Source: Malacoraja senta
Lineage: Eukaryota
Reading direction: 5' to 3'
DNA length: 64,000 nt
Assembly: GCA_038087875.1 (NCBI GenBank)
Contig: CM075993.1
Span: 11,720,001-11,784,000 of the forward strand
Every line of letters starts with the position of its first letter. Position 1 is the stretch's first letter. Both the position numbers and the translations under genes were made by a program. Shown in pieces: positions 2,176 through 61,970 of this stretch. The notes under the pieces were generated by a model. The model searched no databases, was not told the origin of the DNA, and saw only the letters and a program-made list of their open reading frames with translations.

Positions 2176-2397
2176 GATCCACCCTGACCCATCTCAGTTC
2201 CAGGACTCTTTCCAAGCCTCTCTGCTATTGCACCCTTCCTCATGGAGTCCTGTATTTCCCTCCAGGGACCATTCGCTCAGACATCTATGAACAATGTGTT
2301 CACGTTTGTCCTTCCCCAGCCACACGTCCATCCACGGCACCCATTATGAATCTGCAGGACCACGGAATTACCACCATGCATAATTATCCCCCCCCCC

Positions 2398-2876
2398 ACC
2401 ATTCCCACACTGACCTTTCTGTCCTGAGCCTCCTCCATTGTCACACACAAACTGGAGGAACAGCACCTCATATTTCACTTGGGCAGCTTACAACCCATCG
2501 GTATGAGTTTTGATTTCTCCTTGCATCCCCTCTCTCTCTATCCCTGCCCCACCCTAGTCGTTGTACTAGTTTCAATGCCAGCCTGGTGAGTTTCATTGTC
2601 TATAACTGGTTTTCACCTAGCCCACAGCTAACAGTGGCCTGTTTCCTTGATCATCGTTACCTTTTTGCATATCTTTCATTCATTTGTTCTATATCTCTCT
2701 ACATCACCGTCTTTTTGTCTTGTTTCCCTTTCCCCTGACTCTCAGTCTGAAGAAGAGTCTCGAGCCGAAATATCATCTATTCCTTTTCCCCAGAGATGCT
2801 GCCTGACCCGCTGAGTTACTCCAGCTTTTTGTGTCTATCTTCGGTTTAAACCAGCATCTACAGTTCCTTCCTACAT
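2398..2876 (+). mobile_element. Penelope-like element 3' end: GIY-YIG C-terminal remnant, 3'UTR and terminal repeat with a degenerate hammerhead
   Basis: Translates HSHTDLSVL..LH...KLEEQHLIFHLGSLQPIGM (PLE endonuclease tail); CTGAAGA...GAAA at 2747-2770. Confidence 0.75.
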
Positions 2877-3414
2877 ATTTTGTCCACTATCTAAAGCCTG
2901 GTCTTTCAAACCCTGGGAAGTGGATTATCATCTGCTTGGGATAGACACAAAATGCTGCAGTAACTCAGCGGGACAGGCAGCATCTCTGGTGAGAAGGAAT
3001 GAGTGACGTTTCGGGTCGAGACCATCAAGGGAAAAGCAAACGTGAGATATAGACATATCTTCAGACTATTTGCCCAAGGATTGAATCTATTTGCTCCAAG
3101 CTCACCAATTCCCCCAGCGCTATTTGTTTTTTAAATGTTTAATTTGTTTGGAGGGATTGGAGGGATATGGACCAAACGCGGGCAGGTGGGACTCGTGTAG
3201 ATGGGACATATTGGCCAGTGTGGGCAAGTTGGGCCGAAGGGCCTGTTTCCACATTGTATCACTCTATGACTCTAATTCCTTCAGTTCTGCGTTGTCATTA
3301 CATAGAACATGGAACAATAATGCACAGGATGCTTTGGCCCACAATGTCCATGCCAGACATGATGCCAAGTTAAACTGATCTCCAAGCTGCCTGCAAGTGA
3401 TCCATATTCCTACG

Positions 3415-7272: not shown

Positions 7273-7297
7273 AGGGTGTTGCCCAGAATGTGGAAAT

Positions 7298-7377
7298 CAC
7301 ACACTGGTGCACGAACACACACACACACACACACATACACACACTGGTGCACGGACACACACACACACTGGTGCAGA

Positions 7378-7414
<37 letters not shown>

Positions 7415-7503
7415 GTGCACGGACACACACACACACTGGTGCACGGACACACACACACACTGGTGCAGAGACACACACACACACACACACACACTGGTGC
7501 AGA

Positions 7504-7564
<61 letters not shown>

Positions 7565-7893
7565 GTGCACGAACACACACACACACACTGGTGCAGAGAC
7601 ACACACACACTGGTGCAGAGACACACACACACACTGGTGCACACACACACTCACACACACACACACACACACTGGTGCACGAACACACACACTGGTGCAC
7701 ACACACACACTGGTGCACGAACACACACACTGGTGCACACACACACACACACACACTGGTGCACACACACACACACACACACACTGGTGCACGAACACAC
7801 ACACTGGTGCACACACACACACACACACTGGTGCACACACACACACACACACACACTGGTGCACGAACACACACACACACTGGTGCAGGGACA
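7298..7893. repeat. Compound (CA)n minisatellite punctuated by CTGGTGCA(CGA/CGG/GAG)
   Basis: Read directly; it is the source of the spurious HTHT/CVCV ORFs. Confidence 0.97.
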
Positions 7894-7899
7894 CATTAT

Positions 7900-8470
7900 A
7901 CTGCATATCCCATGCTTCTGCCCACTAACCCAACCTATCCAAGTCACCCGCAGCCTCATAGCATCCTCCTCGCAGCTCACACTGCCACCCAACTTAGAGA
8001 TGTTACATTTAATTCCCATGTCTAAATCGTTAATATATATTGTAAACAACTGGGTTCTCAGCACCGAGCTTTGCGGCTCCCCACTGGCCACTGCCGACCA
8101 TTTTGAAAAAGACCCGTTAATTCCTACTTTTTGCTTCCTGTCTGCCAACCAGTTCTGTATCCATGTCAATACCCTACCCCCAATACCATGTGCTCTAATT
8201 TTGCCCACTAATCTCTTGTGTGGGACCTTGTCAAAAGGCTTTTTGAATGTCCAGATACACTACATCCACTGGCTCTCCCTTATACAATCTACTTGTCACA
8301 TCCTCCAAAAATTCCAAAGGATTAGTCATGCATGATTTCCCATCATAATTCCCTGCTGACTTTGACCGATCCCATCACTGCTTTCAAAATGCACTGCTAT
8401 AACATCTTTAATAATCGACTCAAGCATCTTCCCCACTACCGATGTAAGGCTAACTGGTCTATAATTCCCC
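7900..8470 (-). mobile_element. CR1 reverse-transcriptase fragment (degenerate)
   Basis: KIRAHGIGGRVLTWIQNWLADRKQKVGING..W..V.SG.PQ.SVL...LFTIYINDLD. Confidence 0.88.
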
Positions 8471-8560: not shown

Positions 8561-10975
8561 GGGGCGGCACAGTGCCACAGCGGTAGAATTGCTGCCTCAC
8601 AGGGCCAGAGGCCCAGGTTCGATCCTGACTATGGGTGCTGTCTGTACGGAGCTTGTACGTTCTCACCATGAACACGTGAGTTTTCTCCGGGTGCTCCGGT
8701 TTCCTCCCACACTGCAAATACGTGCGGGTTTGTACGTTGTGTAGGAAGGAACTGTTGATGCTGATTTTTTTTTATTTTTTTTTTAAAAAATTTAAATTTT
8801 TTTTATTTATTAGAAGTACATTACATTACAACCACATACATTAATACTCGTCATTTATATCTTCTTACAATTAATGTACTCCCTTTATTTATTTTTTTAC
8901 ACTAGAAAAGGAAAAGATTGAAAGAAAGAAGAAAGTGAAGGAAAAAGTGCAAGTGTAGAAAAGTGTAGAAAATGTAACAACAAAAAAGGACGAAGACCCT
9001 ATGAGAGCGAAATTAAAAACAAAAAGAAAAAGAGTTAAGAAATAGGCCCTAAGAAAAGAAAAGAGAAAGAGAAAAAAAGAGAAACAAATGTTTTTTTTTT
9101 TGAGCATCACGTAAATAGGACATACCAACTCTTCAACTATCATCCCCCCTTACCCGACCTCAATTTTTTTATTTTTTTTAAAGTACTTTTGCACCCTATG
9201 TTTGTAATAATTCTATAAATGCAGACCACGTCAGGTGGAAGTGATCTGGTTTACCTGCTAGGAGGAGTCTTATCTCTTCTAGGTGTAATGTTTCAAACAT
9301 ATTTGAAATCCACATATTTATAGTTGGTATTGGAGCCTTCTTCCAAAATTTTAGGATTAGCTTTTTTCCAGTTATTAACCCATAGTCCATTAATTTCCTT
9401 TGAAACACATTTAGTTCTGGATCATCTTCCGTTATTCCGAAGATAATCCATTCTGCTTTGGGTATCAGTCTTGTTTTAAATAACTTTGTAAAGATTTCAA
9501 AAATTTCATTCCAAAATTTTTGAATTTTTGTACAGAAGACAAATGAGTGCGTTATGGTAGCTTCTTGGGATTGACATTTATCACAAATAGATGATACGTT
9601 TGGGAAATTTTTATGAATTTTAGTTTTCGAATAATATAATCTATGTAAAATTTTAAATTGTATTAAAGTGTGTCTTACATTAATCGAGCATTTATGCACG
9701 TTTAATAAGTATTCATTCCAACTTTCCTTTGAAATTTTAATAGCTAACTCTTGTTCCCAGTCTCTTCTGATACCCTCCGTAGGTGGTATTTGTACATTTA
9801 AAATAATATTATACAAATATGATATTAAGTTTGCTGATTCCGCTTTTATCTGCATTGCCTCGTCCAATACATCTACTGGGTTATTATAATGATCTTTTGT
9901 ATATTTTTTCAAATAGTCGCATATTTGAAAATATTTAAAATATTGATTATTTCCGAGTTTATATTTTATTTGTAATTGTTGAAATGAAAGTAATTTTCCA
10001 GTTTCATACAAGTCACCAAGCGTTTTAATTCCTAGTCTATCCCATTGTGTATAAGCTTTATCTATAATAGAAGGACTAAACGAAGGGTTATTGACTATAG
10101 GTAATAAAAGTGATAAGTTTCTTAGTTTTAAATTTTGTTTTATTTGTTTCCAAATACGGATTGTACTATGAATAATTGGGTTCTTATTATAATTTATGTT
10201 ATTCAGTTTCATTGGAGAGAGGAGGATCGCTCCAATGTTTCTAGAGGAGCAATCCTCTTTCTCCATTACAATCCAGTCTACTTGCTGGGCGGAGTTATCC
10301 ATCAGTTGAATCATGTTTTTAATATTTACTGACCAATAATAATACATAAAATTAGGTAGTGCTAGACCCCCCAATACTTTAGGTTTATTCAGATGGGTTT
10401 TTTGTATTCTATGTGATTTATAGTCCCATATAAAATTAGTGATATCTGAGTCGAGTTTTTTTAAAAACTTCTTAGGTAAGTATATAGGAATTGATTGAAA
10501 TAGGTATAAAATTTGTGGTAAAAAGATCATTTTTATTGCGTTTATTCGGCCTATTAAAGACATCGGGAGCGTTTTCCAGAATTTAATTAATGTATTTAGT
10601 TTATTAAGTAGGGGGTCAAAATTTGCCCTGAATGCTGATTTAAACTGAAGATAGACGTAACAGCTGGAGTAACTCAGGGGGACAGGCGGCATCTCTGGAG
10701 AAAAGGAATAGGTGACATTTCAGGTCGAGACCTTTCTTCAGTCTCTGAAGAAGGATCTCGACCCAAAACGTCACCATACCTTCTCCCCAGAGATGCCGCC
10801 TGTCCCCCTGAGTTACTCCAGCTGTTACGTCTATCACTGGTCTGTAGGTTAATTGGCCTCTGTAAATAGTCCCTAGTGGGCAGGATAGAACTGGTGTGAC
10901 CAGGTGATCTCTGGTTGGCGTGGGCTTGGTGGCCCCAAGGGCCTGTTTCCACGCTGCATCTCTGGAGTTTAAAGT
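8561..10975 (+). mobile_element. V-SINE (8561-8735 and 10841-10975) split by a Penelope fold-back (8739-8767 and 10642-10835), itself split by L1
   Basis: The SINE sequence resumes at TGTAGGTTAATTGG after the insertions; the PLE arm resumes after the L1. Confidence 0.8.
8768..10631 (-). mobile_element. 5'-truncated L1-clade LINE: uninterrupted ORF2 C-terminal part (9196 to about 10631), 3'UTR and poly(A)
   Basis: SLIGRINAIKMIFLPQILYLFQSIP, GGLALPNF, CCHC-type CDKC..ATITHSFVFC; direct repeat ATGCTGATTT at 8758-8767 and 10632-10641. Confidence 0.92.
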
Positions 10976-14300: not shown

Positions 14301-14595
14301 ACCAACACTTCTCGTCACACTGCGGCTGCTCCTGCCAGTGATGCATTACAGGTTGCGATGTCTGTCTGCTGCAGTCGTTGCATTCTTGTGCAGGTTCCGC
14401 GGTTGTGGTTTCTTGAGAGAACACCATTCCCTCAGCTGCTCTGCTTTGGACATCACAGTTCTGTCTGTTCTCTATCGAAGACAGACACAGAATGCTGGAG
14501 TAACTCAACGGATCAGGCAACATCCCTGGAGAAAAGGGATAGGAATAGGAAAGGAAAGGAAAAGGAATAGGAATAGGAATAGGAAAAGGAATAGA

Positions 14596-15148
14596 CCTGG
14601 AGTATTTTGTGCAATTTTTTATCCCCTAATTTGAGGAAGGACATTCTTGTTATTGAGGGAGTGCAGCGTAGGTTTACAAGGTTAATTCCCGGGATGGCTG
14701 GACTGTCATATGCTGAGAGAATGGAGCAGCTGGGCTTGTGCACTCTGGAGTTTAGAAGGATGAGAGGGCATCTCATTGAAACATATAAGATTGTTAAGGG
14801 CTTGGACACACGAGAGGCAGGAAACATGTTCTCGATGTTGGGGAAGTCCAGAACCAGGGGCCACAGTTTAAGAATAAGGAGTAAGCCATTTAGAACGGAG
14901 ACGAGGAAGCTCTTTTTCTCACAGAGAGTGGTGAGTCTGTGGAATTCTCTGCCTCAGAGGGCGGTGGAGGCAGGTTTGGATGCTTTCAAGGGAGAGCTAG
15001 ATAGGGCTCTTAAAAATAGTGGAGTCAGGGGATATGGGGAGAAGGCAGGAACGGGGTACTGATTGCGGATGATCAGCCATGATCACATTGAATGGCGGTG
15101 CTGGCTCGAAGGGCGGAATGGCCCACTCCTGCACCTATTGTTTATTGT
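14596..15148 (+). mobile_element. CR1 (HER1-like) LINE 3' end, young
   Basis: Open frame SPNLRKDILVIEGVQRRFTRLIPGMAGLSYAER...GYGEKAGTGY*. Confidence 0.92.
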
Positions 15149-15689: not shown

Positions 15690-16098
15690 CATGAGTGTTG
15701 TTCCACAAGGATTAGTGGTGGGTCCCTTGTCACAGGCATGAATGACTTGGACGTGGATGAAGGATGAATGATCAGCAAGTACACAGGTGACATGAAGATC
15801 GGTGGAATGGTGCCGTATGTCCAATTAGTCCAATTAGCAGTGTGGCTGCCCACAACGTATGTCCAATTAGGAGAGAGGTTGCGAGATATTGGTTTGGGTG
15901 AAATGGGCTGAGAGATGGCAGACAAATGTGATGTGATGATTGCCTTTCCAGAGAGTGAATCCAAGCCAAATAACTGGTCCCTGTGGAGCCCCTAGCTGTA
16001 TCCTCAGCACCAGCGTAGATCAGCTGGCAGAGGATGGACACAAGGTGGATACAGCGTGCTGGAGTAACTCAGCACGGCTCTGGGGAGAAAGGATGGGT

Positions 16099-16126
16099 GA
16101 CGTTTCAGGTCAGGACCCTTCTTCAG
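16099..16126 (-). ncRNA. Minimal hammerhead ribozyme core (PLE type)
   Basis: Minus strand CTGAAGA A GGGTC CT GACCT GAAAC GTC. Confidence 0.6.
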
Positions 16127-16254
16127 ACTGACAGTAGGTGAGGGGGAGTGGGGAGGTGTTTATTGAAGAGCTGGAGGTGAGAAAAGATCGGGACCACACT
16201 AGGCCGGCCACAAGAGGTATTCACAGATATCTTTCACCTCTCACTGCTCCATTG

Positions 16255-18832: not shown

Positions 18833-19054
18833 CAGCGTGAAGCTACTGCTGTTGTTACCTTCACTCATTGTACCGGTGGCATCAGCCATGTTACTGCGGT
18901 CTGCGGCCCTGACCACACCAGGCCTCACCTCTTACTTCAAGTGTTTGTCATTGAGACAGACAGTGTGGAAACAGGCCCTACAGACCAACTTGCCCACACC
19001 AAACAAGATGCTCCATCTACACTAGTCCCTCCTGCCTGTGTTTGGCCCATATCC

Positions 19055-19254
19055 NNNNNNNNNNNNNNNNNNNNNNNNNNNNNNNNNNNNNNNNNNNNNN
19101 NNNNNNNNNNNNNNNNNNNNNNNNNNNNNNNNNNNNNNNNNNNNNNNNNNNNNNNNNNNNNNNNNNNNNNNNNNNNNNNNNNNNNNNNNNNNNNNNNNNN
19201 NNNNNNNNNNNNNNNNNNNNNNNNNNNNNNNNNNNNNNNNNNNNNNNNNNNNNN
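19055..19254. other. Assembly gap (200 N)
   Basis: Run of exactly 200 N, i.e. a placeholder scaffolding gap. Confidence 0.99.
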
Positions 19255-19502
19255 CTACGGGACTCAAGACCCGTCCATCAACGGAGGGCTGGAGGCCCCG
19301 GCCAAGGAAGAACAATAAGGGTTTGAACTTTATTTTCACCTTCCATCACAGTGAAGAATGTGTAGGAGTCCACTGTGATGGATGTTTATGTTAAAATGTG
19401 TTTTCTGAGTCTGTTGCTTTTTAAAATTGTATGACTGACCTGGCCAGTGAATTTCACTACCACCGATTGGTGTTTGTGACAATAAATGACCTTATGAACC
19501 TT

Positions 19503-23140: not shown

Positions 23141-23507
23141 CTGGCAGCTTCCCCCTACAGGCCACGGCCAGCCACTGGGTCTCCTGGGCAGGTCCCTGCT
23201 TGCACAGGTACCTTGTGCAAATACCAGGAACCTGCGCAGTGCCTCCATGTCACACACGCCCGGATTGGTCCTTCCTCATCTGAGTCTGAGCTCTGGGACA
23301 CCTCCCCTGGGGCCCATCTTCCCCAGGGCTGCTGCTGTCCAAGGCAGTGCACCACCACCTTCTCATGGGCAATAAAGGCCCACCTTGCCAGTGTGGCTGA
23401 GATCCCAACAAAATAAATCAAGTTTAAAAAAATGGTCCTGTCTTTCCACAATCGGCATCATTGCTAAACCAACTGGACCTGCCAACCCGCTTGCTCTAGA
23501 CTAAATG

Positions 23508-23687
23508 TTCAAGAAGGAACTGCAGATGCTGGAAAATCAAAGGTAGACAAAAATGCTGGAGAAACTCAGCGGGTGCAGCAGCATCTATGGAGCGAAGGAA
23601 ATAGGCAACGTTCGGGCCGAAACCTATTTCCTTCGCTCCATAGATGCTGCCGCACCCGCTGAGTTTCTCCAGCATTTTTGTCTACCT
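23508..23687. mobile_element. Fold-back Penelope terminal-repeat insertion (second subfamily: CAGCATCTATGGAGCGAAGGAAATAGG)
   Basis: Near-perfect inverted arms; GCTCTAGACTAA occurs on both flanks. Confidence 0.75.
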
Positions 23688-23900
23688 CTGCTCTAGACTA
23701 ACCCCACCAGCAAGCTTCCGCCCAGATCCCAAACTAATTCCAAATTAGTTGGAAATTCAGATCTGAAATTGGAAATGTAGGTTAATTGCTTGGTGTAAAT
23801 GTAAATTGTCCCTAGTGTGTTTAGGATCGTGTTAATGTGCGGTGATGTGTTGTGTTGTTGCTCATGGGTTCCAATCACTGGAGTAGTTCCTTTTTTTTTT

Positions 23901-24929: not shown

Positions 24930-25096
24930 CTGAAAGAGAGCACACACATAATCACATTGCAGACTGGCCTGGACAGGCGAACCGCAGAAGCACAAGCATC
25001 AACTTCATAAAACTCACCGATTCACTCCAAGGTGACTGAAGCTTAATGGTAATAAACCACATCATATGAATGCTGGAGAACTCAGCGGGTGAACCA

Positions 25097-25340
25097 GCAT
25101 CTATGGAGCGAAGGAATAGGTGATGTTCGGGTCGAGACCCAGAAGCATCTATGGAGCGAAGGAATAGGTGACGTTTCGGGTCGAGACCCGGAAGCATCTA
25201 TGGAGCGAAGGAATAGGTGACATTTCGGGTCGAGACCCGGAAGCATCTATGGAGCGAAGGAATAGGTGACATTTCGGGTCGAGACCCGGAAGCATCTATG
25301 GAGCGAAGGAATAGGTGATGTTTCGGGTCGAGACCCGGAA
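25097..25340. repeat. Five tandem 49-bp units derived from the Penelope terminal repeat, inside a fold-back (25069-25450)
   Basis: Unit GCATCTATGGAGCGAAGGAATAGGTGACGTTTCGGGTCGAGACCCGGAA starts at 25097, 25145, 25194, 25243 and 25292. Confidence 0.92.
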
Positions 25341-26499
25341 GGGTCTCAACCCGAAATGTCACCTATTCCTTCGCTCCATAGATGCTGCCTCCCCCGCTGA
25401 GTTTCTCCAGCATTTTTATCTACTTTGATTTTTCCAGCATCTGCAGTTCCTCTTAAAGATCAATATGAATGCTCTGCACGTAAGCTGCTACCTTGCAACA
25501 TATATTTTCAGAAATATGAGTTCAAATTGTACACTTCCCAAACAAACACAGGGTTCCCCCTGTGAATATTGTGACACATTTCGTCAGCTTTTCTGTTTGT
25601 TTGCAAAGATAACCATACTTTTCCAATTTGTATTCCACCCGCCATTTCTCACCCATTCACTCAGCTTGTCCATATTCCCTCAAGGCCTCTCTACGCCCTG
25701 CTCCAAACCGTCTAGTTTAGCTTCATCGGCAAACTTGCAGATATATTTGTTCCCTACGGCCAAAATGCTGATATACACCATGACTAACCTGGCCCAAGAG
25801 CGTTCCTTGGACTACCCTGGTTGGCACCCTACAATGGCTCTTGCCCTCTCACTCCAAGTGTCTAAACGACCTTCAAGCCCCTTTTCATGTTTCTCACATC
25901 TCACAAACTTTAGTCGAGGGCGGTGAATCTGTGGAAGTCATTGCCACAGACGGCTGTGGAGGCCAAGTCAATTGTATTTTTAAAGCAGATATTGACATAT
26001 TCTTGATTAGTACGGGTGTCAGGGTTTATAGGGAGAAGGCAGGAGAATGGGGGTGAGAGGGAAAGATAGATCAGCCGTGATTGAATGGCAGAGTAGACTT
26101 GTTGGGCCAAATGGGCCGATTCTGCTCCTCGAACTAATGAACCTATCTGGTTTTGCATCATTAACAGAAATATTACATTCACTTCCTTGATCTTTAACTT
26201 TCCTTATGACACTGGAAGAGGCCCATCGGTCCATTGGGTGCTTGCTAGCTCTCAGACAATTCCATCGATTCCTCCCACCCATCTACACTGAGACAATTGT
26301 GAAGCACAGAAACAGGCATTGTTTGAGGCAGTGCTTTGTACTGTGATGTATGACCAGGAGCAGTTCACGAAGCAGATGCAATTATTTAAAAGGCAGCGGG
26401 AGGAATTTGTGAGGCCCTCGAAGAGCGGGGGGGGGGAAAGGGATTAGTTGGAATGATTTTAAGAGTCCTTGACTGCCTCTGCCGTGTAACCACTCTGTG

Positions 26500-30394: not shown

Positions 30395-30793
30395 GATCTC
30401 TCGGTTGCCAAACACGTTACCTCCCCTTCCAATTCCCACACTGACCTTTTTGTCCTGGGCCTCTTCCACTGTCAGAGTGAGGCCCAATGCAAATTGGAGG
30501 AACAGCACCTCATATTTTGCTTGGGCAGCTTACAACCCAACAGTATGAATATCAAAGAAACCCTTTCATTCCCTCTCTCTTCATCCCTTCCTCCACCCTA
30601 GCTGTTGTACTAGTTTCACTGTCGTTCTGCTGAGCTTCACTGTTTGTATCCACTTGTTATCACGCTCACCACAGCCAACAATGGCCCATTGTTTGACCAT
30701 CCTTTCCATCTTTCCACCAAGCTCCACCTGAATTACTCCAGCATTTTGTGTCTATCTCCAGTGTAAACCAGCATCTGCAGTTCCTTCCTACAC
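30395..30793 (+). mobile_element. Penelope-like element 3' end (GIY-YIG C-terminus, UTR, partial terminal repeat)
   Basis: SVAKHVTSPSNSHTDLFVLGLFHCQSEAQCKLEEQHLIFCLGSLQPNSMNI. Confidence 0.78.
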
Positions 30794-31449
30794 ATTTTCT
30801 TTGTTCTTTGTGTATTTCAGCTTTTGCCGCCAGAGATTCTTTCCCCTAATTTCTTGTCGGAAGTCCAAAGATTCCCTATTTATGATGAAACCTCGTACTT
30901 GAATGGAAAATCACAAGACTTGAAAAGTTTTGATTGAGGAACTGGAGGAAGGAACTTGTAGCATGTGGATTTTAACAGGACATTGGCCTCTGATCATCAT
31001 ATTCACCAAAATTCACCTAGCATTGCGATTAGCCAAATATTAGCATGTATAGGATGTTTGGAACTTCCACCATGCCTTATTAGAGAGGAATAGATCGGGT
31101 AGATGCACAGAATCTCTTGCCCAAAGTAGGGGAATGGACGACCAGAGGACATAGGTACACGGTGAAGGGGAAAAGATTTAATAGGAATCTGAGGGGTAAC
31201 CTTTTCACACAAAAGGTGGTGCGTATGGAACAAGCTGCCAGAGGAGGTAGTTGAGGCTGGGACTATCGCAACGTTTAAGAAACAGTTAGATAGGTACATG
31301 GATAGGACAAGATTGGAGTGATATGGGTGGGACTAGTGTAGCTGGGACATGTTGGCTGATATGGGCAAAGTTTGGCAAAGGGCCTGTTTGCACACTATGA
31401 CTCTATTAAAGCCATGCCAGGTGCAGTTGCGGCATTCTACACAATGTAC

Positions 31450-35976: not shown

Positions 35977-36340
35977 TAGAAACATAGACAATAGGTGCAG
36001 GAGTAGGCCATTCGGCCCTTCGAGCCAGCACCGCCATTCAATATGATCATGGCTAATCATCCAAAATCAGTACCCCATTCCTACTTTCTTTCCATATCCT
36101 TTGATTCCGTTAGCCCTAAGAGCTAAACCTAGCTCTCTATTGAAAACATCCAGTTTGGCCTCCACTGTCTTCTGTGGCAGAGAATTCCACAGATTCACAA
36201 CTCTCTGGGTGATATTTTTTTTCCTCATCTCAGTCCTAAATGGCCTACCCCTTATTCTTAAATGGTGACCCCTGGTTCTGGACTCCCCCAGCATCGGGAA
36301 CATTTTTCCTGCCTTTAGCCTGTTCAATCCCTTAAGAAAT
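35977..36340 (-). mobile_element. CR1 LINE 3' end
   Basis: AGKMFPMLGESRTRGHHLRIRGRPFRTEMRK. Confidence 0.88.
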
Positions 36341-36884
36341 TAGAAATCATGTCGCGCATTCCAAATATATTGAACCCAAAGAGTTATATTTGCAATGGAT
36401 CACTGATGTAATGTGGAGATTGAGCAACAAATTTACACGCAGCAGTGTCTCATATCCGAATTATCCAACATTTATTATAATTGCAGGTTCATCATCGATT
36501 TTCCGGCACCCTTGGTCCAGAACATTTCTGCATTATCCGTTTTGCCAGTCCAGCAGAGGTCACAGCCTGCAAGAGGAGTCCAAAGGTATCGGAATGGTCC
36601 ACCTAGGTTGCCGAGATACCTTGGAAAGGCGACCAGCGTATCAAAGACTTCTCCCACCCCATCATTCCTTCTTCTCCCTGTTCCCGTCCGGCAGAAGATA
36701 CACGAGCTTGAACGTACGCACCATCAGAATCAGGAACAGCTTCTTCCCTTCTGTTATCTGGTCCTTCCATGAGCCAGGGCACTGTCTAATTCACCTCTAT
36801 CCCAGTATGGAACAATCACACTACAATGCTGAGAACAATATTGTCTTCACTGCCAGGGTGAAGAGTCCTTCATTTCCCTCGTTG

Positions 36885-37612
36885 CCAGGGGCATTGAGTG
36901 TAAGAGTCAGGATACAAGGATACAAAGGACATTTATTATCACGTACACCAATTGGTGTAGTGAAATTTGACTTGCCATTGCAGCACACGAATAAAGATAA
37001 GACACAACATTAAAGAATTTAACAATAAACATAAAAACATCCCCCCACAATGGTTCCCACTGTGGAGGAAGGCAGCAAAGTCATGATGCAGCTTTATAAG
37101 ACTTTGGTTAAGCCATATTTGGAGTATAGTGTGCAGTTCTGATTGCCCCATTACAGGAAGCATGTTTGAGGCTTTGGAAAATGCAAAGAGGTTTACCAGA
37201 ATGCTGCCTGGATTAGAGGGTTTCAGCTGCAAGGCAAAGATGGACAAACTTGGATTGTTTTTTCTGGAACATCAGAGGTTGAGGGGAGTATTTAAAATGA
37301 TGAGAGGCATAGATAGGGTAGACAGTCAGAATCTTTTTCCCAGTATGGAAATGTCCAACACCAGAGGGCTTAGTTATAAGATGAGAGGGGGAAGGTTTAC
37401 TGGAAATGTGCAGGGCAATTTTTTTAATACAGAGTAGTGGGGCCTGGAACTCATTGCCAGGGGTGGTGGTGGAGGCAGATACGATAGTGGTGTTTAGGAT
37501 GCTTTCAGATAGGTACATGGAAGTGCGAGGGATATGGATCATGTACAGGCAGATGATATCAGTTTAACTGCATCATGTTCGGCATAAACATTGTGGGCCG
37601 AAAGGCCTGTTG
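36885..37612 (+). mobile_element. Older CR1 3' fragment with a nested non-autonomous insert (about 36915-37080, minus)
   Basis: MQLYKTLVKPYLEYSVQF..P..RK..ALE...[14 protein letters not shown]. Confidence 0.75.
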
Positions 37613-46099: not shown

Positions 46100-49000
46100 A
46101 TTAGTGTGTTATTGACTGGGACTCCCTTGGTGCCAACGTCACAGATGGAGCAGAATTTGTCAGGTGCCTCGAGGATGATTTCTGGACACAGTGTGTAGAT
46201 TGTCCTGCCACGGGACATCCTGCACTGGACCATGTATTAGGGAATATGCTCGGCCAGATGGTTAGATTTTCCAAAGGGAGAACAATGCAGGAACAGTGAA
46301 CATAACTCTAAGTTTTCACATAGTTATGGGTGACGATAAGACTGGCTCCCAAAGCAAAGGGTTAAATTGGGGAACGGCTATTACAACAGTACTAGAGTAG
46401 GGAGTATTTGTACGTTCACTCCGTGACCTTGATGGGGTTTTCTCCCAGATCTTCGGTTTCCTCCCACACTCCAAAGACAGGTTTATAGGATTATTGGCTT
46501 GGTATAAATGTAAAATTGTCCCTAGTGTGTGCGGAGATCGCTGGTTGCCGCAGACTCGGTGGGCTGAAGGGCCTGTTTCTGCGCTGTAACTCAAAACTAA
46601 ACTAAAAACTCGTGTAGGAAAGAACTGCAGATGTTGGTTTAAATCGAAGATAGACACAAAATGCTGGAGTAACTCAGCGGGACAGGCAGCATCTCTGGAG
46701 ACAAGAAAAGGGTGACTTTTCTCCAGAAATGCTGCCTGTCCCGCTGAGTTACTCCAGCTTTTTTTATGTCTACCTTTAACTAAAAACTAAGAAGATTGGG
46801 AACATCTGTTATTGGATAAATACAGATCTGACACGTTGGAGTCTTTTAGTCCAACTGTTTAGAATTTTAGTCCAACATGTTCCGATGAAGATTATAGATA
46901 GAGATAGCAAGGTTCAGGAACCCTGGCAAGAGATGTTTTAAGTTTAGTCAAAAAGAAAAAGGAAGAGAATGTAATTCAGAAGCACTTAAGAAGCTGATAT
47001 TAGACAAAGCCCTTGAAGAATATAAAGTAAGCAGGAAAAAATGTAAACAATGAATCAGGAGGGCTAAAAGGGACATGGAATACCCTTGGCAAGGATTAAG
47101 GAGAGTCCTGAAGTATTTCATTCACACATACATGTGTACATTAAAAACAAGACAGTAGGAGATGTAGGCTGAAAGAAAAAGAAGGGAATTTATGCCTGAA
47201 GCCAGAAGAACTGAGCCAGGCCTGACATTAGTTCTTCATGGAAGGAGTGTGTAGGAACATACTGCAGATGCTGGTTTAAACTGCAGATAGACTCAAAGAG
47301 CTGGAGTAACTCAGCGGGACAGGCAGCATCGCTGGAGAAAAGGAATAGGTGATGTTTTGGGTCGAGATCCTTCTTCAGACTGAGAGTCAGGGGAAAGGGA
47401 AATGAGAGGTATAGAGAGAGATAGAACAAATGAATGAAAGATATGCTAAAATGTTTCCAAGTATGGCCTGTTTCCGTTATCATTGTTACTTTTTTGTCTG
47501 ACCCACTGAGTTACTCCAGCATTTTGTGTCTATCTTCATGGAAGGAGAATGACATGGATGATAGTGAGATCAGGGATGGGTCTGATGATATGGAGGAGGA
47601 GGTGTTGGGTCTCTTGAAGAACTTGAAGGTAGACAGGTGCCCAGAGATCTATCCCAGGATATTATGGAAGGCAAGGCAGGAGAGTGTTGACAGAGATCTT
47701 TGTATTCTCCTTAGCCACAGAGGAGATCTCAAGAGAATAGCCAACATAGTTCCTCTGTATAAGAAGGGCAACAAAGACAAAACCAAGACATTATCGGCTA
47801 GTGAGCCCTACATCATTGGTCGGGGAATTATTGGAGAAGTTTCTTAGGAACATAATTTACTTGCACTTGGAAACGCACTGAATTAAGTAGAATCAGCATG
47901 GCTTTGTGTGAGGAAGGCCATGCTTCACAAACTTAAGTTGAGTTTTCGAGGAGGTAACAAAGATTATTGAGGAGAGCACGGCAGAGCATGTTGTCCATAT
48001 GGACTTGAGTAAAGCATTTGACAAGGTCCTTCATGGTAGGCTGATCCAGAAGATTATGTTACACGGGATCCAAGGTGAGTTGGTAAGTTGGACACAAACT
48101 AGGCTTGATCATAGTAGACAGAGGGCAGCGGAGAAAGGGTGTGACTGAATGCAGGTCTGTGACCAGTGGTTTCCACAAGTGCTGGAACTTCTTCTTTACT
48201 TCTAAATGATCTCAATGAAAGCATCAGGAAGTTTGCGGGCAATGAGAAAGATTAGCAGGTTTGCAGATAGTACACAAAGTTGTAGACAGTAGAATCGCGA
48301 TCAGTGGAAAATATGGGTGCAGAAATGGCAGATGGAATGTAATCCATCCAGCTGTTAATGTGGTGGATTTTGAGAGTTCAAATGTAAGAGGAAAGTGTAC
48401 ATTTAATGGATGTATATATAGATTCTTAACAGCACTTATGTACAGAGGGATCTTGGGTGGAAGCCCATAACTCCCTTTATGCGGCAGCACAAGTAGATCA
48501 AGCTGTGAAGAAGGCGTATGGAATGCCTGCCTTCATAGGTTGGGGCATTAAATATAAGTCAGAAGTCATGTTGCAGCTTTATAGGATGTTGGTTAGGCCA
48601 CATTTGGAATATTGTCTGCATTCTGGTTCCAATTACAGGAAGGACTTTGGAGAGGGTGCAGAAGAGGTTTACCAGGAGGTTTCCTGCATTGGAGATTTTT
48701 TTTTTTTAATATATATATATTTTTTAAATTCATTTTATTTATTTATTTATTTAAAAACATATTTTAATTTATTAGAAGTAAGTACAGTAATGTGGCACCA
48801 AGGTGCCTAATATATATTGGCATGTTACATTTGATGTACAGCTTCATTTTTTAAAAATAATAAAAGGGAGAAAGAAAGAATTGGTAATAAAAAATAGAAA
48901 AACGTGTGATGTGTTGGTGTGTGAAAAGGAAAAGGGGGGGAAGAGGGGAAGTTAAAAAAAAAGAGAGAGAAAGAGAAAGAGTAGAGAGTAGGAGATTCTA

Positions 49001-52482: not shown

Positions 52483-52776
52483 ACACACATTGAAATAATG
52501 CATCAAAATAAATGGGTGCCTTTAACTACTTATCCAGCCTATGATAAATACACTGAACTTACGAGTCACTGCAGAGCAGAAGGAAGCAAATATATTTCCA
52601 AGACATCACGTCTGAGTATTTTCAGTAGATGGTTATTCATTAGAATTTAAAGCATCCTCTATCCTACTTTAAATTGTACAGGAAGGAACTGCAGATGCTG
52701 GTTCACATTGAAGTTAGACACAAAATGCTGGAGTAACTCAGCGGGACAGGCAGCATCTCTAGAGAGAAGGAATAGT

Positions 52777-52804
52777 CTGAAGAAGGGTCTCGACCAGAAA
52801 CGTC
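52777..52804 (+). ncRNA. Minimal hammerhead core within PLE fold-back 52678-52853
   Basis: CTGAAGA A GGGTCTCGACCA GAAAC GTC; one stem II mismatch. Confidence 0.5.
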
Positions 52805-53215
52805 ACCCATTCCTTCTCTCCAGAGATGCTGCCTGTCCCGCGGAGTTACTCCATAATCTATTTTGTGATCAGCGTGAATGCACATTGGGTGATAACAATC
52901 AAGTTTTAATGGACAACAGGATAATTGTAAAACAATGTTGTATTCAAAAGAAATAATCTCATTAAAATGTCAAGGATTATATATTCCATTATGATCATCT
53001 TTAAAGATGGTCCCTGGAGAACATTAACAATAATTAAACATATGGGATTTCCTTAATGGAGAGTCACTGGAGACAGAGAGCAGGAAACTACAGGCCAGTT
53101 GGCTTCACATCTGTCATAATGAACATGAGAGAAGCTAGTAGAACATGCAAAATATGTGGAAAAATTCAAAGAAAAAATCAACTTCAGCCAATTAATTTAT
53201 TGGACCTCTTTTCAT

Positions 53216-53654: not shown

Positions 53655-54043
53655 GTAGACACAATAAGCTGGAGCAACTCAGCCAGTGAGGCAGCATCTC
53701 TGGAGAGAAGGAATGGGTGAAGTTTCGGGTCGAGACCCTTCTTCAGGCTGATGTCAGGGGAGGGTGCGGGACAAAGATAGAATGTAGGCGGAGACAGTAA
53801 GACAGGTGGGAGAACTGGGAAGGGGGAGGGGACGGAGAGAGAGAGCAAGGGCTATCTGAACTTCGAGAAGTCAATGTTCATACTGATGGGGTACAAACTA
53901 GCTAAGCAAAATATGAGGTGCTGTTCCTCCAATTTGCGCTGGGCCTAACTCTGACAATGGAGGAGGCCCAGGACAGAAAGATCAGATTGGGAATGGGAGG
54001 GGGAGTTGAAGTGCTGAGCCACCGGGAGATCAGGTAGGTTAAG
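53655..54043 (-). mobile_element. Penelope-like element 3' end (GIY-YIG C-terminus, UTR, terminal repeat with hammerhead core 53719-53746)
   Basis: Minus strand PDLPVAQHFNSPSHSQSDLSVLGLLHCQS.AQRKLEEQHLIFCLASLYPISMNIDFS. Confidence 0.82.
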
Positions 54044-54346
54044 TCAATGAATACTTTCTGGATACTTTCAAGAAAGAGCTAGGAGGTAAAGGGACAGGTG
54101 TTGCATCTTCTGCGGTTGCCGATGAAAATTGCAGGGGAAAGTACTCGTCCCTTCCCACCCAAACCGCCCCCTCCCCAGGTACTTTCCCCTACATGGTTGA
54201 CATAGGCTAATATTAGAGTAGTCTGCAAGGTAGAAAAGGTAACAGAGCATCACCATTTGTGGCTCAGGGAATTACATATTAAAATAGGAAGGGATACATT
54301 ATTGATATACAGCATTAATGAGATCACATTTGAAGTACTGGGAACA

Positions 54347-54640
54347 GATAGACACAAAATGCTGGAGTAACTCAGCGGGACAGGCAGCATCTCTGGAGAG
54401 AAGGAATGGGCGACGTTTCGGTCGAGACCCTTCTTCAGACTGGTTAGGGATAAGGGAAACGAGAGATATAGACAATGATGTAGAGAGATAAAGAACAATG
54501 AATGGACGATGTGCTTAAAGCTAACGATGATAAAGGAAACAGGCATTGTTAGCTGTTTGTTGGGTGAAAATGAAAAGCTGGTGCGACTTGGGTGGGTGAG
54601 GGATAGAGAGAGAGGGAATGCCGGGGCTACATGAAGTTAG
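54347..54640 (-). mobile_element. Penelope-like 3'UTR plus terminal repeat (hammerhead core 54412-54438)
   Basis: Reverse-complement match to 14003-14300. Confidence 0.78.
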
Positions 54641-55351
54641 GACCTGAAGTGGGAACAGACTTGGTCTCCTTACTTAAGGAGCCTTGAAAGCACTTGAAGG
54701 GGGTTTACTAGACTAATACCTAGAATGGACACCCAGTCTGAAGAAGGGTGTCGACCTGAAACCTCATCTATTCCCTTGCTCCACAGATGCTGTTTGACCC
54801 GCTGAATGATTCCGGCCTTTTGTGTCTATCTCGGTTTAAACCAACATCTGCAGTTCCTTCCTGCACACAATACGGAGAATGGGGGGGTTGACTTATGAGG
54901 AGAGGTGAACAAGCCAGGCTTGCAACCACTGGAGCTTGGATACAGAGAGGGGACTTGGTTGTAACACAAGGTCTTCAAGGGACTTGACAGGTTGTATGTG
55001 GAGAGGATATTTCCCCTTGTGAGAGAATCGAGAACAAAGTAATGTGTGACCGATTGGACACAGAGATAATGCATAATATTCTCTCGGATGGTCACGGGTT
55101 TTCAGAAGATTCTTCCCCAAAGGGCGGGAGAGGAGTGTCTTTGAATACTTTTAAGGCAGGGGTATAAAACATTCTTGATAATGGGGGAAAATTATTTGGG
55201 GGCAAGCAGGAATGCTGTGCAAGGTTACAACCAGATTAGCAATGCTCGAGGGTGTAGGGAGGAACTGCAGGTGCTGGTTTATATTGATGATAGACAAAAT
55301 GCTGCAGTAACTCAGCGGGACAGGCAGCATCTCTGGATAGAAGAACTGGAT

Positions 55352-55379
55352 GACGTTTCAGGTCGAGACCCTTCTTCAG
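55352..55379 (-). ncRNA. Minimal hammerhead core, sense to VPS13C
   Basis: Minus strand CTGAAGA A GGGTC TC GACCT GAAAC GTC. Confidence 0.6.
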
Positions 55380-55482
55380 ACCGGAGGGAATGTTGGAGGG
55401 AATGACTTTAGGAGCCAGCCAGCCAAGTCCTGCTCAAAACTCGTATCATTTGGATAAATTCCGATGGAGCAGCAAGTCTTAC

Positions 55483-55606
55483 TTTTTGATTCCCTGGAAA
55501 GTGCTGCTTGCCATGTCAATGATGCCGCCGGTCGGCCGCGCCACCACTCCCACCAGACCTTTGCCCACTCCTTTAAAGAAACCAGCTGCACCTTCCTTCC
55601 TCGCAC
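55483..55606 (-). CDS. VPS13C: VPS13C coding exon (ARKEGAAGFFKGVGKGLVGVVARPTGGIIDMASSTFQGIK-K)
   Basis: acag|GT...AAAAA|gtaaga, 124 nt, phase 1 to 2; hallmark VPS13 motif GFFKGVGKGLVG. Confidence 0.95.
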
Positions 55607-55974
55607 CTGTCGGGGAAATTGTAACACATTGATTGTTGCACACAAACGTCATTTTTTTAACCAGATTATCGCGCTCTGGAGCTGAACTTTTATTACCAGA
55701 TGGCATAGAATGCAAAAATATCAGTGTTATATACACAGCCAAATACAGCCTGGATGGTTTCCAAACAGGAAACAAATTATATGGAGCAAGGTTCACACAT
55801 TCTCCACACTGATCATGTCCAACATAAAGAGCTGTCACTGTTCACCACGTCAAGGAATGATGTTTAACCTCTCAAGGGGCTGTCTTTGGTGATATGAACT
55901 CAATTTCCAGAAGGAAGAGGTAATAAGGACAAGTCCTCCATTGTGGACTTTACAACGAGACTGGCAAAAGCGAA

Positions 55975-56402: not shown

Positions 56403-56840
56403 AATCAACAGCAGGAGTGATGAACAAATTAATAGATTGCACTCACAACTATTGTTGAAGTCAGCATGCTGGGGAACCAATGATTAAATATGGCACTTTA
56501 GACATGAGTACAATGAGGATGTTTGTGGAAGAGTGATCATAATATGCTGACTTTTGTATAGAAACATTGAAAACCAATGCCTTTAAAATATTACAAATGA
56601 CCAAGTATGAGCCTAGGAAACTAGTTTGAGAACAAAGACATTGACAATGGAAAGAAATATACCCCAGTAACGAGAACTAACTGAAGAAGCATGTATAAAT
56701 ACGTACAAAGAAAAGATCAGCTAAAGTTAACAGGAGTACTTAACATTAATAGGAAGGAACTGGTTTAAACCGAAGACAGACACAAAAATGCTGGAGTAAC
56801 TCAGCGGGAAATGCAACATCTCTGGAGAGAAGGAATGGGT

Positions 56841-56868
56841 GACGTTTCGGGTCGAGTCCCTTCTTCAG
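56841..56868 (-). ncRNA. Minimal hammerhead core, sense to VPS13C
   Basis: Minus strand CTGAAGA A GGGAC TC GACCC GAAAC GTC; one stem II mismatch. Confidence 0.5.
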
Positions 56869-57118
56869 ACTGAGACTGACAGACAGGGAAAAGTACAGAT
56901 AGGAATAATGAAATGGTAGATTTTATTAACTGAAAAAACAAGAATACTTCCCAGAAATGGTGGTCACCAGGTCTGCATTGAATAAGGATTTGAAAGAACG
57001 TAATATTAGTAAAATAACAGCATTGGGAAAATTAATTGGATTGAAAGCTGATAAATCCACAGGCTCCATGACTTGCATCGACCTGAATATGATGCCAAGC
57101 TATGATGCCAAATAATGT

Positions 57119-57146
57119 CTGAAGAAGGGTCTCGACCCGAAACGTC
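57119..57146 (+). ncRNA. Minimal hammerhead core, consensus copy
   Basis: CTGAAGA A GGGTC TC GACCC GAAAC GTC: CUGANGA, stem II, GAAA, palindromic ACGU, GUC cleavage triplet. Confidence 0.65.
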
Positions 57147-58432
57147 ACCGATTCCCTCTCTCCAGAGATGCTGCCTGTCCCGCTGAGTTACTCCAGCTTT
57201 TTGTGTCTATCGCCAAGTTAACCTGATCTCCTCCTGCTGCACGTGATCCACACTCTCCATTCCATGCACATGTTTAGATTAAAGCAGCATTGAATCAGGC
57301 CCTTCAGCCCATCAAGTCCATGCCAACTATCCTTTTTTAATGAAGATAATGATAGAAAATTGGGTTGCTTTTAAATGACAAGGTTTTGAAAGGTGTTGAC
57401 TGACTACAGGATCGCGACTGTCCTTCCGTATGAAGCATTCCATGACAACAGGTAGAAATAAGGAAGGAAACAGAACCTTGTTGCAAAAGGATTTGAGTAA
57501 AGATATCTTCCTGCAATCACGAAAGACCTGGGTGAAACTGCACCTGGAATACAGTCGCATCTCCCCCCGGGAAGGTTTTACATGAAACAGAGGGAGTGCT
57601 GCAAAGATGAACCAGATTCATTTCCAGCCGAATGAGAAGATACACTCCAGAATTTAAAAGGGACGGGTCATTTAGGATTCAAATGAAAATAAATTTGGAG
57701 GGCAGCATATCCTTGGAACTCCCTCCACAAGGGCTGGAAAGATTCAGTTGCTGAGTTCATTCATTCAGAGATTTGGGGATATTAAGGGAATCAAGGAATC
57801 TGGGATTATTACAGGAAAGTGATATTGAGGTTAGACCAGCTGCGATCTCTACATGGCAGAGCAAATGTGATGGATCAATGGTCTCGTGCTCCCACCTCAT
57901 TTCATATTTATCAGGGTGATTTAGAGTCATTGATCATGCAAGCAGTAAAGTAAGCCCTTCAGCACAACGTCCATGCCAACCATTAAGCAGCCATCTCTGC
58001 GGATCACATTTGGACAGGAACAGAGATAGAAAAGATTTAGAGGGATATGAGCCAAACATGGGAAGGTGGGACCAGTGTAGATCAGGCATCTTGGTCGGCA
58101 TGGGCAAGTTGTGCCAAAGGGCCTGTTTCCATGCTGTATCACGATGAGTTGAATTGTACTACGACCTCCCTCTTTTATATCTCATGAAAGCAAATAATCT
58201 GTACTACTTTTCCACCCTTCATCCAACTGATCTGCATTACGAATCTTTGGACTGTAACACCACGGTTCCACTGTCCCTCAATTCTCCCATGGACCACACC
58301 ATCCATTATGTATGTCCTACCCTGAGTTAGTCCTCTCAAAATGTGCACTTATAAATATTAAAGTCCTATCTTCATTGCTCTACCCAACTTACCAACAGAT
58401 CAAAATCACCCTCAGCCCAACACTTCAGACTT

Positions 58433-60559: not shown

Positions 60560-61970
60560 AAATCTGAGGGAGAGGATTAATGATCATTTGGAAAGGCAGG
60601 GACTAACCTGAGATGGCTTGACACAAAATCCTGGAGTAACTCAGCTGGCCAGGCAGCATCTCTGGAGAAAAGGAATAGATGGCATATCGGGTCGAGACTG
60701 TTCTTCAGACTGTTTTGTCAAAGGCAGAGACTATCTGATCAATTTGAAGAGGTATTAGTGAGGGTAGGGCAGTAGATATACATTATGTGGACTTTAGTGA
60801 GGTCTTTGGCAAAGTTCCACATGGGAGACTAGTTGAAAAGATTAGGGCACAAGGGATCCAGGCAAGTTATTAAACTGGATCTAAAGCTGACTTGACAATA
60901 GGAGTTAGAGGATAATTGGAGAGGCTGTTGTTGTGACTCGCTGTGTCCCACAAGGATCGTTGGTGGGACTCTTGCTCTGTGTAATGTACGTGAATGACCT
61001 GTGTAGGAAGGAACTGCAGATGCTGGTTTAAACTGAAGATAGACATAAAGTGCTGGAGTAACTTAGGAGAGAAGGAATGGTTGATGTTTTGGGTCGCGAC
61101 TGTTCTTCAGACTCCAGTCTAAAGAATGGTCTCGACCCGAAACATCACCCATAGAGTCTGAAGAAGGGTCTCGACCCGAAATGTCACCCATTCCTTCTCG
61201 TGTAGGAAGGAACTGAAGATGCTGGCTTAAACCAAAGATAGACACAAAATGCTGGCGTAACTCAGCGGGACAGACGGCATCTCTGTGGTAATGCTATTCA
61301 AAAAATTAAGTAAATGAGGAGCTCTTTAATGAGAGTTAACAATTTAAAGACATAAAGTGCTGGGGTAACTCAGGAGAGAAGGAATGGGTGACGTTTCAGG
61401 TCAAGACCCATCTTCAGACTCAATGGGTGATGTTTCGGGTCGAGACCCTTCTTCAGTCCCATTCCTTCTCTCCAGAAATGCTGCCTGTCCTGCTTTTGTG
61501 TCTATTTACGTCAATGACCTGGATGTAGATCCGAGATGTGTAACTGTGAATAACACGAAGATTGGCAGGGTTGTTAATTGTATGGAATATCATATGGAAT
61601 ATATGGAATTGTATGGAATATCGTCATTTTAGGCTGCAGGGAGATATCAATGTGTTGGTGAAATGGCAGATGGAGTTTAATCCAGACAATCGAGAGGTCA
61701 AGCACTTGGAGAGCATGAATAAGGTGAAGATATACACCATGTACGACAGGATCTTAGAAAGTAGTTACAGTGGGACATTGGAGCACGTCCATTTAAAAGT
61801 GGCAACACAACTAGATAACAGCATTGGGAAACCATATGGAGCACTAGCATGGGATACATAGAATATAAAAGTAGGGAGGTTAAACTGCAGCTGTAATAAA
61901 ACCTGAGACCACAGCTGGAGTACAGGGCAGTTCTGGTCACCATGTTACAGGAAGGAAGTGATCGCATTGT
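60560..61970 (+). mobile_element. Decayed CR1 RT region containing a complex PLE cluster (61001-61506)
   Basis: AVDI.YVDFS..F.KVPH.RLV.KIRA.GI, VPQGS.VG.LL..MYVNDL, KWQMEFNPD..EV.H remnants. Confidence 0.72.

What the first reader, a model, noticed from the sequence alone, without database searches (positions are those of the whole stretch)
57119..57146. The dominant short repeat of the window carries a minimal hammerhead ribozyme core
Seen: the repeat consensus contains CTGAAGA-A-GGGTC-TC-GACCC-GAAAC-GTC. That is the hammerhead core CUGANGA/GAAA, a 5-bp stem II, a stem III reduced to the palindrome ACGU and a GUC cleavage triplet. Core-intact or nearly intact copies are at 16099(-), 52777(+), 53719(-), 54412(-), 55352(-), 56841(-), 57119(+), 61158(+), 61390(-) and 61429(-). 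About 12-15 more have decayed, often by CpG transitions (CGAAACG to CAAAACG, TGAAA or AATG). Established: Penelope-like elements carry minimal type I hammerheads in their terminal repeats that are thought to cleave as dimers through the palindromic stem III. Inference: this genome holds a very high-copy, largely non-autonomous ribozyme-bearing family (about one copy per 3 kb here), resembling retrozymes. Stem I is only about 2-3 bp in most copies, so monomer activity is doubtful.
Basis: partly seen in the sequence, partly recalled or inferred. Interest (0 to 1): 0.8.

Follow-up and report, generated by a model that had tools for sequence, protein, structure and literature searches.

The report
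Penelope retrotransposon tail carrying minimal hammerhead
The repeat is the 97-135-base end of a Penelope-like retrotransposon, present in an estimated 700,000 mostly decayed copies, and it carries a hammerhead-ribozyme motif of a kind already described in such elements, which likely cuts RNA only weakly, in pairs and with protein help, if at all.

Summary
The motif is real: all ten cited sites keep the hammerhead core. It is not a separate retrozyme family. It is the terminal repeat (pLTR plus tail) of an endonuclease-bearing Penelope-like element of Neptune type. The same unit follows RT + GIY-YIG ORFs in 16 of 20 long copies, flanks intact ~1,210-aa ORFs on both sides, and follows three ORF stumps in the window. 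Genome-wide there are 45,154 exact core-intact 28-mers and an extrapolated ~740,000 copies (3.7% of sampled bases); only 125 close tandem junctions were found. Minimal hammerheads in such repeats were described in 2014. Corrections: stem II is 4 bp with a YNMG tetraloop, stem I is 2 bp, the youngest lineage has GUU, and only 1 of 56 window copies is fully intact. Lineage changes spare all 11 core bases, but the catalytic fold is not predicted to be stable, and insert 5' ends show no excess at the cleavage site. Unexplained: about half of the copies start within a few bases of the ribozyme's 5' edge. Verdict: new, very high-copy member of a known kind.

The parts
57117..57211 (+). Short (tail-less) copy of the Penelope-like terminal repeat; the only copy in the window with all hammerhead features
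57119..57125 (+). Hammerhead core C3-A9 (CUGAAGA); 57126 is the extra A between A9 and G10.1
   Evidence: extra base described in PMC4209133
57127..57138 (+). Stem II: 4 bp GGGU/ACCC closed by a CUCG tetraloop (UUCG or CCCG in other lineages)
57139..57146 (+). GAAA core, ACGU palindrome (57142-57145) in place of stem III, C17; predicted cleavage between 57146 and 57147
   Evidence: site inferred from hammerhead numbering, not tested
57117..57148 (+). Stem I of 2 bp only: G57117-C57148 and U57118-A57147
   Evidence: 2 bp in 25 of 29 descriptor matches
57182..57197 (+). Downstream GCUG/CAGC hairpin, as invariant across lineages as the core; likely part of the RT binding or initiation module (inferred)
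53852..54040 (-). Broken 3' end of the element's ORF (GIY-YIG C-terminus, one internal stop), followed by a 102-nt pyrimidine-rich UTR and the repeat at 53749-53654
   Evidence: 70% aa identity to intact L124 ORF, E 2e-19
30395..30796 (+). Second ORF stump (30395-30556) with a repeat remnant at 30699-30796
2385..2879 (+). Third ORF stump (2385-2520), UTR and tailed repeat 2744-2879
52676..52883 (.). Head-to-head inverted pair of copies (includes cited site 52777)
60998..61511 (.). Cluster of inverted and 38-39-nt tandem copies (includes cited sites 61158, 61390, 61429), all partly decayed
54345..54441 (-). Cited copy 54412 with about 200 nt of a longer-UTR subfamily upstream
55252..55381 (-). 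Cited copy 55352, tailed, about 100 nt downstream of a VPS13-like exon on the same strand
56750..56871 (-). Cited copy 56841, one mismatch in stem II
16038..16129 (-). Cited copy 16099, core intact, G10.1-U11.1
25069..25452 (.). 49-nt tandem array of 5'-truncated copies lacking CUGANGA, plus an inverted copy

Best explanation
The repeat is the terminal pLTR/tail of a Penelope-like retrotransposon with RT and GIY-YIG domains and Neptune-type motifs, and the dispersed copies are likely dead, 5'-short inserts made by that element's own protein. Shown: intact elements carry the hammerhead motif before and after the ORF; copies end at two 3' positions about 36 nt apart; a quarter to a third are head-to-head pairs; some have 10-15-bp target duplications; isolated copies decay at CpG. 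Inferred: the protein nicks DNA and starts reverse transcription at one of two internal sites just 3' of the hammerhead, as shown for the Anolis element; synthesis usually ends near the ribozyme's 5' edge and rarely runs into UTR and ORF. The ribozyme would act only in transcripts of tandem or full-length elements, as a weak dimer through ACGU with protein help, trimming tandem RNA to unit length; templates were uncut or re-ligated circles. I put in-vivo cleavage in active lineages at about 55% and a host function of dispersed copies under 5%.
For: Unit in sense just after the ORF in 16 of 20 long RT loci; ORF of about 1,210-1,250 aa flanked by two hammerheads in L121, L122, L124, L125, L126 of 20 loci, 97-99% alike, 415-nt direct repeats; RVT_1 E 7e-6 and GIY-YIG E 2e-3. 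3' ends: 209 at columns 88-108, 194 at >=122, 93 elsewhere, of 496; relatives' RNA reads show the same borders. 56 of 238 anchored copies inverted, 104 of 317. TSDs 13 of 124 against 0 of 615 shuffled. Six lineage consensuses share all 11 core bases; changes are U-A>U.G, C-G>U.G, loop U>C, C17>U and A1.1>G, all allowed by the fold, while UTRs upstream differ in length (about 80-230 nt) and sequence. Non-CpG core columns 0.96 against 0.88 for flanks, 119 copies, p=6e-4. Precedent: PMC4209133, PMC11167929, PMC8557442.
Against: Catalytic fold is not favoured: stem I pairing probability <=0.015, stem II about 0 in 120-nt context for three of four copies, the ACGU dimer (-12.7 kcal/mol) loses to a stem-II-swapped dimer (-19.7). 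No excess of 5' ends at the cleavage site: 9 at columns 31-32 against 6.6 expected, p=0.22, 474 copies. No pile of RNA ends there in 3 RNA runs of relatives (weak test). The downstream hairpin is as invariant as the core, so the core may be kept for protein binding; the column test is biased by selecting copies that align at the 5' core, and clusters were defined on flank columns. Pfam scores are under the curated cut-offs. Clade was assigned by motif, without a tree.
Confidence: 0.85

Rival explanations
1. The short copies are a self-propagating mini-element: RNAs that start at the ribozyme's 5' edge (an initiator-like TCAGTCT, or the acceptor of an intron) are copied by the Penelope protein from the internal start sites to the RNA's 5' end, and such inserts are transcribed and copied again, like a SINE without a tRNA head.
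For: 124 of 238 anchored copies have unique flank and start within about columns -3 to +4, against 51 with the pyrimidine UTR; 7 of 13 TSD-bounded copies start at columns 2-4; an extra G before AGT in 11 of 20 non-C cases (post hoc p=0.007) could be a copied cap; D. virilis Penelope has an internal promoter and an intron ending at helix I; some clusters have few UTR-bearing members (3 of 28).
Against: Starts are spread over 6-8 columns, not one base; no conserved donor at the ORF end and 0 intronless junctions for the one donor tested; RT stalling at the pyrimidine tract or annealing at the TCAG-T-CTGA palindrome explains the same pile-up; no start site was mapped.
Confidence: 0.25
2. The motif is a catalytically dead relic kept for another reason (protein binding, promoter or splice signal); the 2-bp stem I and the GUU site of the youngest lineage mark loss of cleavage.
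For: Unfavourable folds; uncut templates; in Anolis cleavage is not needed for insertion in vitro; Naiad elements spread without canonical hammerheads.
Against: All lineage changes stay inside hammerhead rules, H17 included; a 2-bp helix I is also reported for D. virilis Penelope; the Anolis ribozyme cut only when protein was present.
Confidence: 0.35
3. A non-LTR retrozyme family: tandem non-coding units that self-cleave into circular RNAs and spread independently of the ORF-bearing element.
For: A few 39-nt tandem arrays of the bare hammerhead exist (C1002, C21, C2294); retrozymes are proposed to derive from pLTRs.
Against: 125 close tandem junctions of the GUC form against 45,154 core-intact copies; 7 of 238 copies tandem; no canonical helices I and III; sequence continuous with the ORF. 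Longer tandem periods were seen only in the sampled loci, not searched genome-wide.
Confidence: 0.07

Closest known systems
Minimal type I hammerheads in pLTRs of metazoan Penelope-like elements (Cervera and de la Pena 2014, PMC4209133; parts 1-2 of 4 read)
   Same: Core, unpaired base between A9 and G10.1, G10.1-C11.1, palindromic 15.2-16.2, position in both pLTRs, mostly solo truncated copies, inverted pairs.
   Different: Helix II 4 bp + YNMG loop instead of 7-8 bp; helix I 2 bp instead of 4-5 (as in their D. virilis variant); 45,154 exact core-intact copies against about 4,000 (coelacanth) and 9,000 (Xenopus), by different search rules.
Poseidon element PAc of Anolis (Frangieh et al. 2024, PMC11167929; parts 1-2 of 4 read)
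   Same: Hammerhead at the pLTR-ORF junction, two 3' ends giving a 30-40-nt tail, uncut RNA as the main template.
   Different: Here the ATG lies about 160 nt downstream of the core, not in stem II; the protein has the CX2-5CxxC linker of Neptune/Nematis; nothing was assayed here.
Neptune-clade EN+ PLEs (Craig et al. 2021, PMC8557442; passages read)
   Same: Single ORF, RT then CX4CxxC linker then GIY-YIG with CCHH; partial tandems; inverted 5'-truncated copies; tail.
   Different: No tree built; long low-complexity N-terminus (ORF about 1,210 aa); about 740,000 short copies.
Non-LTR retrozymes (PMC7229834, passages; bioRxiv 10.64898/2026.07.22.740005, parts 1-2 of 5 and passages)
   Same: Type I hammerhead in a high-copy animal repeat, link to pLTRs.
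   Different: Not in tandem units of about 300 bp, hammerhead minimal rather than canonical, collinear with a coding element; axolotl has up to 120,000 motifs (section title), so the core-intact count here is no record.

Membership tests
PLE minimal type I hammerhead | CUGANGA / GAAA / UH core | tested here: met
PLE minimal type I hammerhead | Unpaired base between A9 and G10.1; G10.1-C11.1 pair | tested here: met
   A in 112 of 117; G-C in 85 of 119 copies, G-U by CpG decay in 18
PLE minimal type I hammerhead | Palindromic stem III remnant | tested here: met
   ACGU in the lineage consensuses; one old cluster ties C/T at a CpG
PLE minimal type I hammerhead | Helix II 7-8 bp and helix I 4-5 bp of the Schistosoma type | tested here: not met
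   4 bp and 2 bp; a 2-bp helix I is within the published variants
PLE minimal type I hammerhead | Lies in the pLTRs of a PLE | tested here: met
PLE minimal type I hammerhead | Self-cleavage as dimer or with protein | not testable with these tools
   folding unfavourable; insert and RNA ends show no signal
EN+ Penelope-like element, Neptune type | One ORF with RT and C-terminal GIY-YIG | tested here: met
   (Pfam hits under curated cut-off; YIDD motif present)
EN+ Penelope-like element, Neptune type | CX2-5CxxC linker and CCHH motif in the endonuclease | tested here: met
   read in the translations; definition (shared with Nematis)
EN+ Penelope-like element, Neptune type | pLTRs, partial tandems, inverted 5'-truncated copies, 30-40-nt tail | tested here: met
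EN+ Penelope-like element, Neptune type | RT phylogeny within Neptune | not tested
   no reference PLE sequences were at hand
Non-LTR retrozyme | Tandem repeats with an intact hammerhead in each unit | tested here: not met
   125 close junctions genome-wide; 7 of 238 sampled copies tandem; a handful of 39-nt arrays would qualify
Non-LTR retrozyme | Canonical helices with loop 1-loop 2 contacts | tested here: not met
Non-LTR retrozyme | Abundant unit-length circular RNA | not testable with these tools
   no RNA run on record for this organism

The most novel reading that the evidence does not exclude
The short copies are a ribozyme-headed mini-retroelement: RNAs that begin at the hammerhead's 5' edge are copied from the internal RT start sites to their 5' end by the Penelope protein and re-amplify on their own, making a 100-135-nt hammerhead module nearly 4% of a vertebrate genome and recording the element's RNA start in hundreds of thousands of inserts.
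Probability: 0.25. Interest if true: 0.6.

Novelty: new member of a known kind. Interest (0 to 1): 0.33.

Why it matters
The class of motif is known, so the finding is not surprising in kind. Its value is as a test system: young intact elements, several lineages and about 740,000 inserts let one ask what Penelope hammerheads do, which the papers read leave open. The insert ends already say that linear cut RNA is not a main template, and the pile-up of 5' ends at the ribozyme's edge points to an unmapped step of Penelope transposition. Repeat annotation and small-RNA or miRNA calls in this genome must also allow for the many inverted pairs that fold as long hairpins.

Tried and rejected
Rfam scan: no hammerhead model at E<=1; hits were hairpins of inverted pairs and simple repeats. 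5-bp stem II with a 2-nt loop: sterically impossible. A better stem I partner elsewhere in the element: the best 10-mers were generic purine runs. Stem I rescue by upstream inverted copies: the fold pairs GGGU with the 3' strand instead. Intron from the ORF stop to the CAG: donor not conserved, 0 intronless junctions; other donors were not tested. Host exons spliced onto the repeat: TSDs abut the start in most TSD-bounded copies. The first 5'-end analysis was confounded by inverted arms and replaced. No RNA holder listed for this organism; reads of relatives come mainly from dispersed copies and showed no listed GT-AG joint to the hammerhead, but only 15 of 271 joints were displayed; an RNA-only view could not be obtained. 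Other hammerhead families in the blind sample: 0 matches outside this family. Lunse et al. 2017 on dimer cleavage could not be read and is known only through a review passage. Literature searches for this family in cartilaginous fish found no description (listings only, subscription journals, Repbase and Dfam not covered; supplements of PMC4209133 and of the 2026 preprint, which includes one chondrichthyan, were not seen and may list it). Earlier scan notes: none.

Full report
Observation. The loose core pattern has 11 matches in the window against 1.28 by chance, and the ten cited sites are at their coordinates. A profile built from 7 tailed copies finds 56 copies in the window; 28 span the core, 13 keep CUGANGA, GAAA and UH, and one (57119) keeps everything. 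Column numbers below count from the A three bases before C3, so C3 is column 4 and the predicted cut lies between columns 31 and 32.

Abundance. The window is G000:C17:11720001-11784000 in a 1.94-Gb assembly. An exact 33-mer occurs 10,212 times, reversed control 0. A 28-nt core-intact pattern occurs 45,154 times. In 120 stretches of 10 kb taken at round coordinates (1,198,200 bases) there are 456 hits, 0.38 per kb and 3.7% of bases, which extrapolates to about 740,000 copies; the first 60 stretches gave 0.44 per kb. The host is a vertebrate by a VPS13-like exon; that it is a cartilaginous fish is my recall of such repeats, from no call.

Identity. The copy at 53749(-) is preceded by a pyrimidine-rich UTR and a broken ORF end. 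A 29-aa piece of it has 39,707 first-look candidates in the genome, an RT piece 8,658, an N-terminal piece 3,374: the steep 3' bias of a 5'-truncating retroelement. In 16 of 20 loci chosen for long RT frames the repeat follows the ORF in sense. Among 20 loci chosen for the longest frames of a young lineage, L121, L122, L124, L125 and L126 have an unbroken 1,224-1,261-codon frame with the hammerhead on both sides, and several lie in tandem at about 3.9 kb; they are 97-99% alike with 415-nt direct repeats. The protein matches RVT_1 and GIY-YIG weakly and shows the CX2-5CxxC linker and CCHH motif given for Neptune and Nematis. Two more ORF stumps precede repeats in the window. The repeat is thus the pLTR and tail of a Penelope-like element.

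Architecture of inserts. 3' ends are bimodal, 209 at columns 88-108 and 194 at 122 or later, of 496, the 30-40-nt tail that marks two internal RT start sites in the Anolis element. Of 238 copies anchored on the 5' core, 124 have unique flank, 56 an inverted copy, 51 the pyrimidine UTR and 7 a tandem copy upstream. Inverted junctions often fall at self-complementary spots: TCAG-T-CTGA, stem II and AACGTT. Target duplications of 10-15 bp were found in 13 of 124 against 0 of 615 shuffled pairs. Close head-to-tail junctions number 125, with a few 39-nt arrays, so the retrozyme organisation is the exception.

The ribozyme motif. It has the features of the minimal hammerheads reported in PLE repeats: extra base after A9, G10.1-C11.1, palindromic 15.2-16.2. 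Stem II is 4 bp with CUCG, UUCG or CCCG; that these fit the YNMG tetraloop class is recalled. Stem I is 2 bp in 25 of 29 descriptor matches. Clustering 271 copies on flank columns gave six groups of 6 or more (264 copies); all share the 11 core bases, and lineage changes are wobble-compatible in stems I and II, in the loop, or C17>U. With about a quarter of flank columns variable, zero changes in 11 has a chance near 0.04, and the clustering favours flank variation, so this is modest support. Non-CpG core columns are 0.96 identical against 0.88 for flanks, with an ascertainment bias; the downstream hairpin is as invariant. There are no double compensatory changes at lineage level. Single copies decay at CpG: 58 of 119 keep the core and 33 the whole motif without regard to stem I.

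Against activity. Stem I forms with probability 0.015 or less, GGGU can pair with the bases after the cut site, and the ACGU dimer is 7 kcal/mol weaker than a stem-II-swapped dimer for 57119. If cut linear RNA were a template, inserts would start at column 32; 9 of 474 start at 31-32 against 6.6 expected. Cut and re-ligated circles, proposed in PMC4209133, would not be seen by this test. RNA reads of related organisms cover the repeat on both strands, confirm both borders and show no pile of ends at the site, a weak test with fragmented libraries. Published minimal motifs were inactive as monomers and weak as dimers, and the Anolis one cut only with protein.

Open point. Starts of unique-flank copies crowd into columns -3 to +4, and 7 of 13 TSD-bounded copies start at columns 2-4, just after a pyrimidine tract and CAG kept by all lineages. 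This may be an RNA 5' end (initiator-like by recall of the consensus; D. virilis has an internal promoter and an intron ending at helix I), or RT stalling. One splice model gave 0 junctions. Old lineages whose UTR is not pyrimidine-rich could be misfiled as unique flank, though the bases upstream of column -4 are near background.

Verdict. Observation confirmed, interpretation half right: a Penelope-type minimal hammerhead, in the end of an autonomous element rather than a retrozyme. New member of a known kind; I found no description of this family, which do not cover repeat databases. Interest 0.33.

Noticed in passing
L199-L209, L213, L214 (e.g. G000:C17:1-11700, C14:18.24-18.41 Mb, C5550, C1804): A second, young Penelope-like family sits in arrays among (TAACCC)n telomeric repeats, one at the very start of contig C17: ORF1 597 aa with a weak GDSL/SGNH esterase match (E 0.004), overlapping ORF2 759 aa with RT and GIY-YIG, many copies intact, and its own atypical hammerhead-like motif (5-bp stem I, 4-bp stem II, CU instead of UH before the cut site). 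About 30% identical to the window's family. Esterase-bearing Neptune-like PLEs are mentioned in PMC5408684; a telomere-repeat-associated endonuclease-bearing one in a vertebrate was not found. Possibly more interesting than the finding itself.
   Followed up: partly
window 55482-55607 (-): Exon matching VPS13C/VPS13A (E 3e-17); the repeat cluster around the finding is likely intronic.
   Followed up: partly
window 9196-10719 (-): 507-aa open frame that reads like the C-terminal part of an L1/Tx1-type ORF2 (label recalled).
   Followed up: no
window 7131-8335, 14595-15062, 36336-37013: Fragments of CR1/L2-type LINE ORFs, the first interrupted by a long (CA)n array (labels recalled).
   Followed up: no
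window 23505-23702, 6815-7020, 10632-10843, 25069-25452, 46610-46783, 52676-52883: Head-to-head pairs of the repeat form long hairpins that score as miRNA precursors below gathering thresholds.
   Followed up: partly
G000:C1002:16564-16674 and 25829-26017, C21:1887142-1887564, C2294:126955-127335: 39-nt minisatellites made of the bare hammerhead; the best local candidates for cis-dimer cleavage and for the retrozyme definition.
   Followed up: no
L212 (G000:C14:18482283-18492282) and L015: The last 10 kb of C14 are a simple-sequence array; a 16-nt telomere-like satellite follows some copies of the second family.
   Followed up: no
window, one gap near 19050-19260: 200 N bases in the window.
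   Followed up: no
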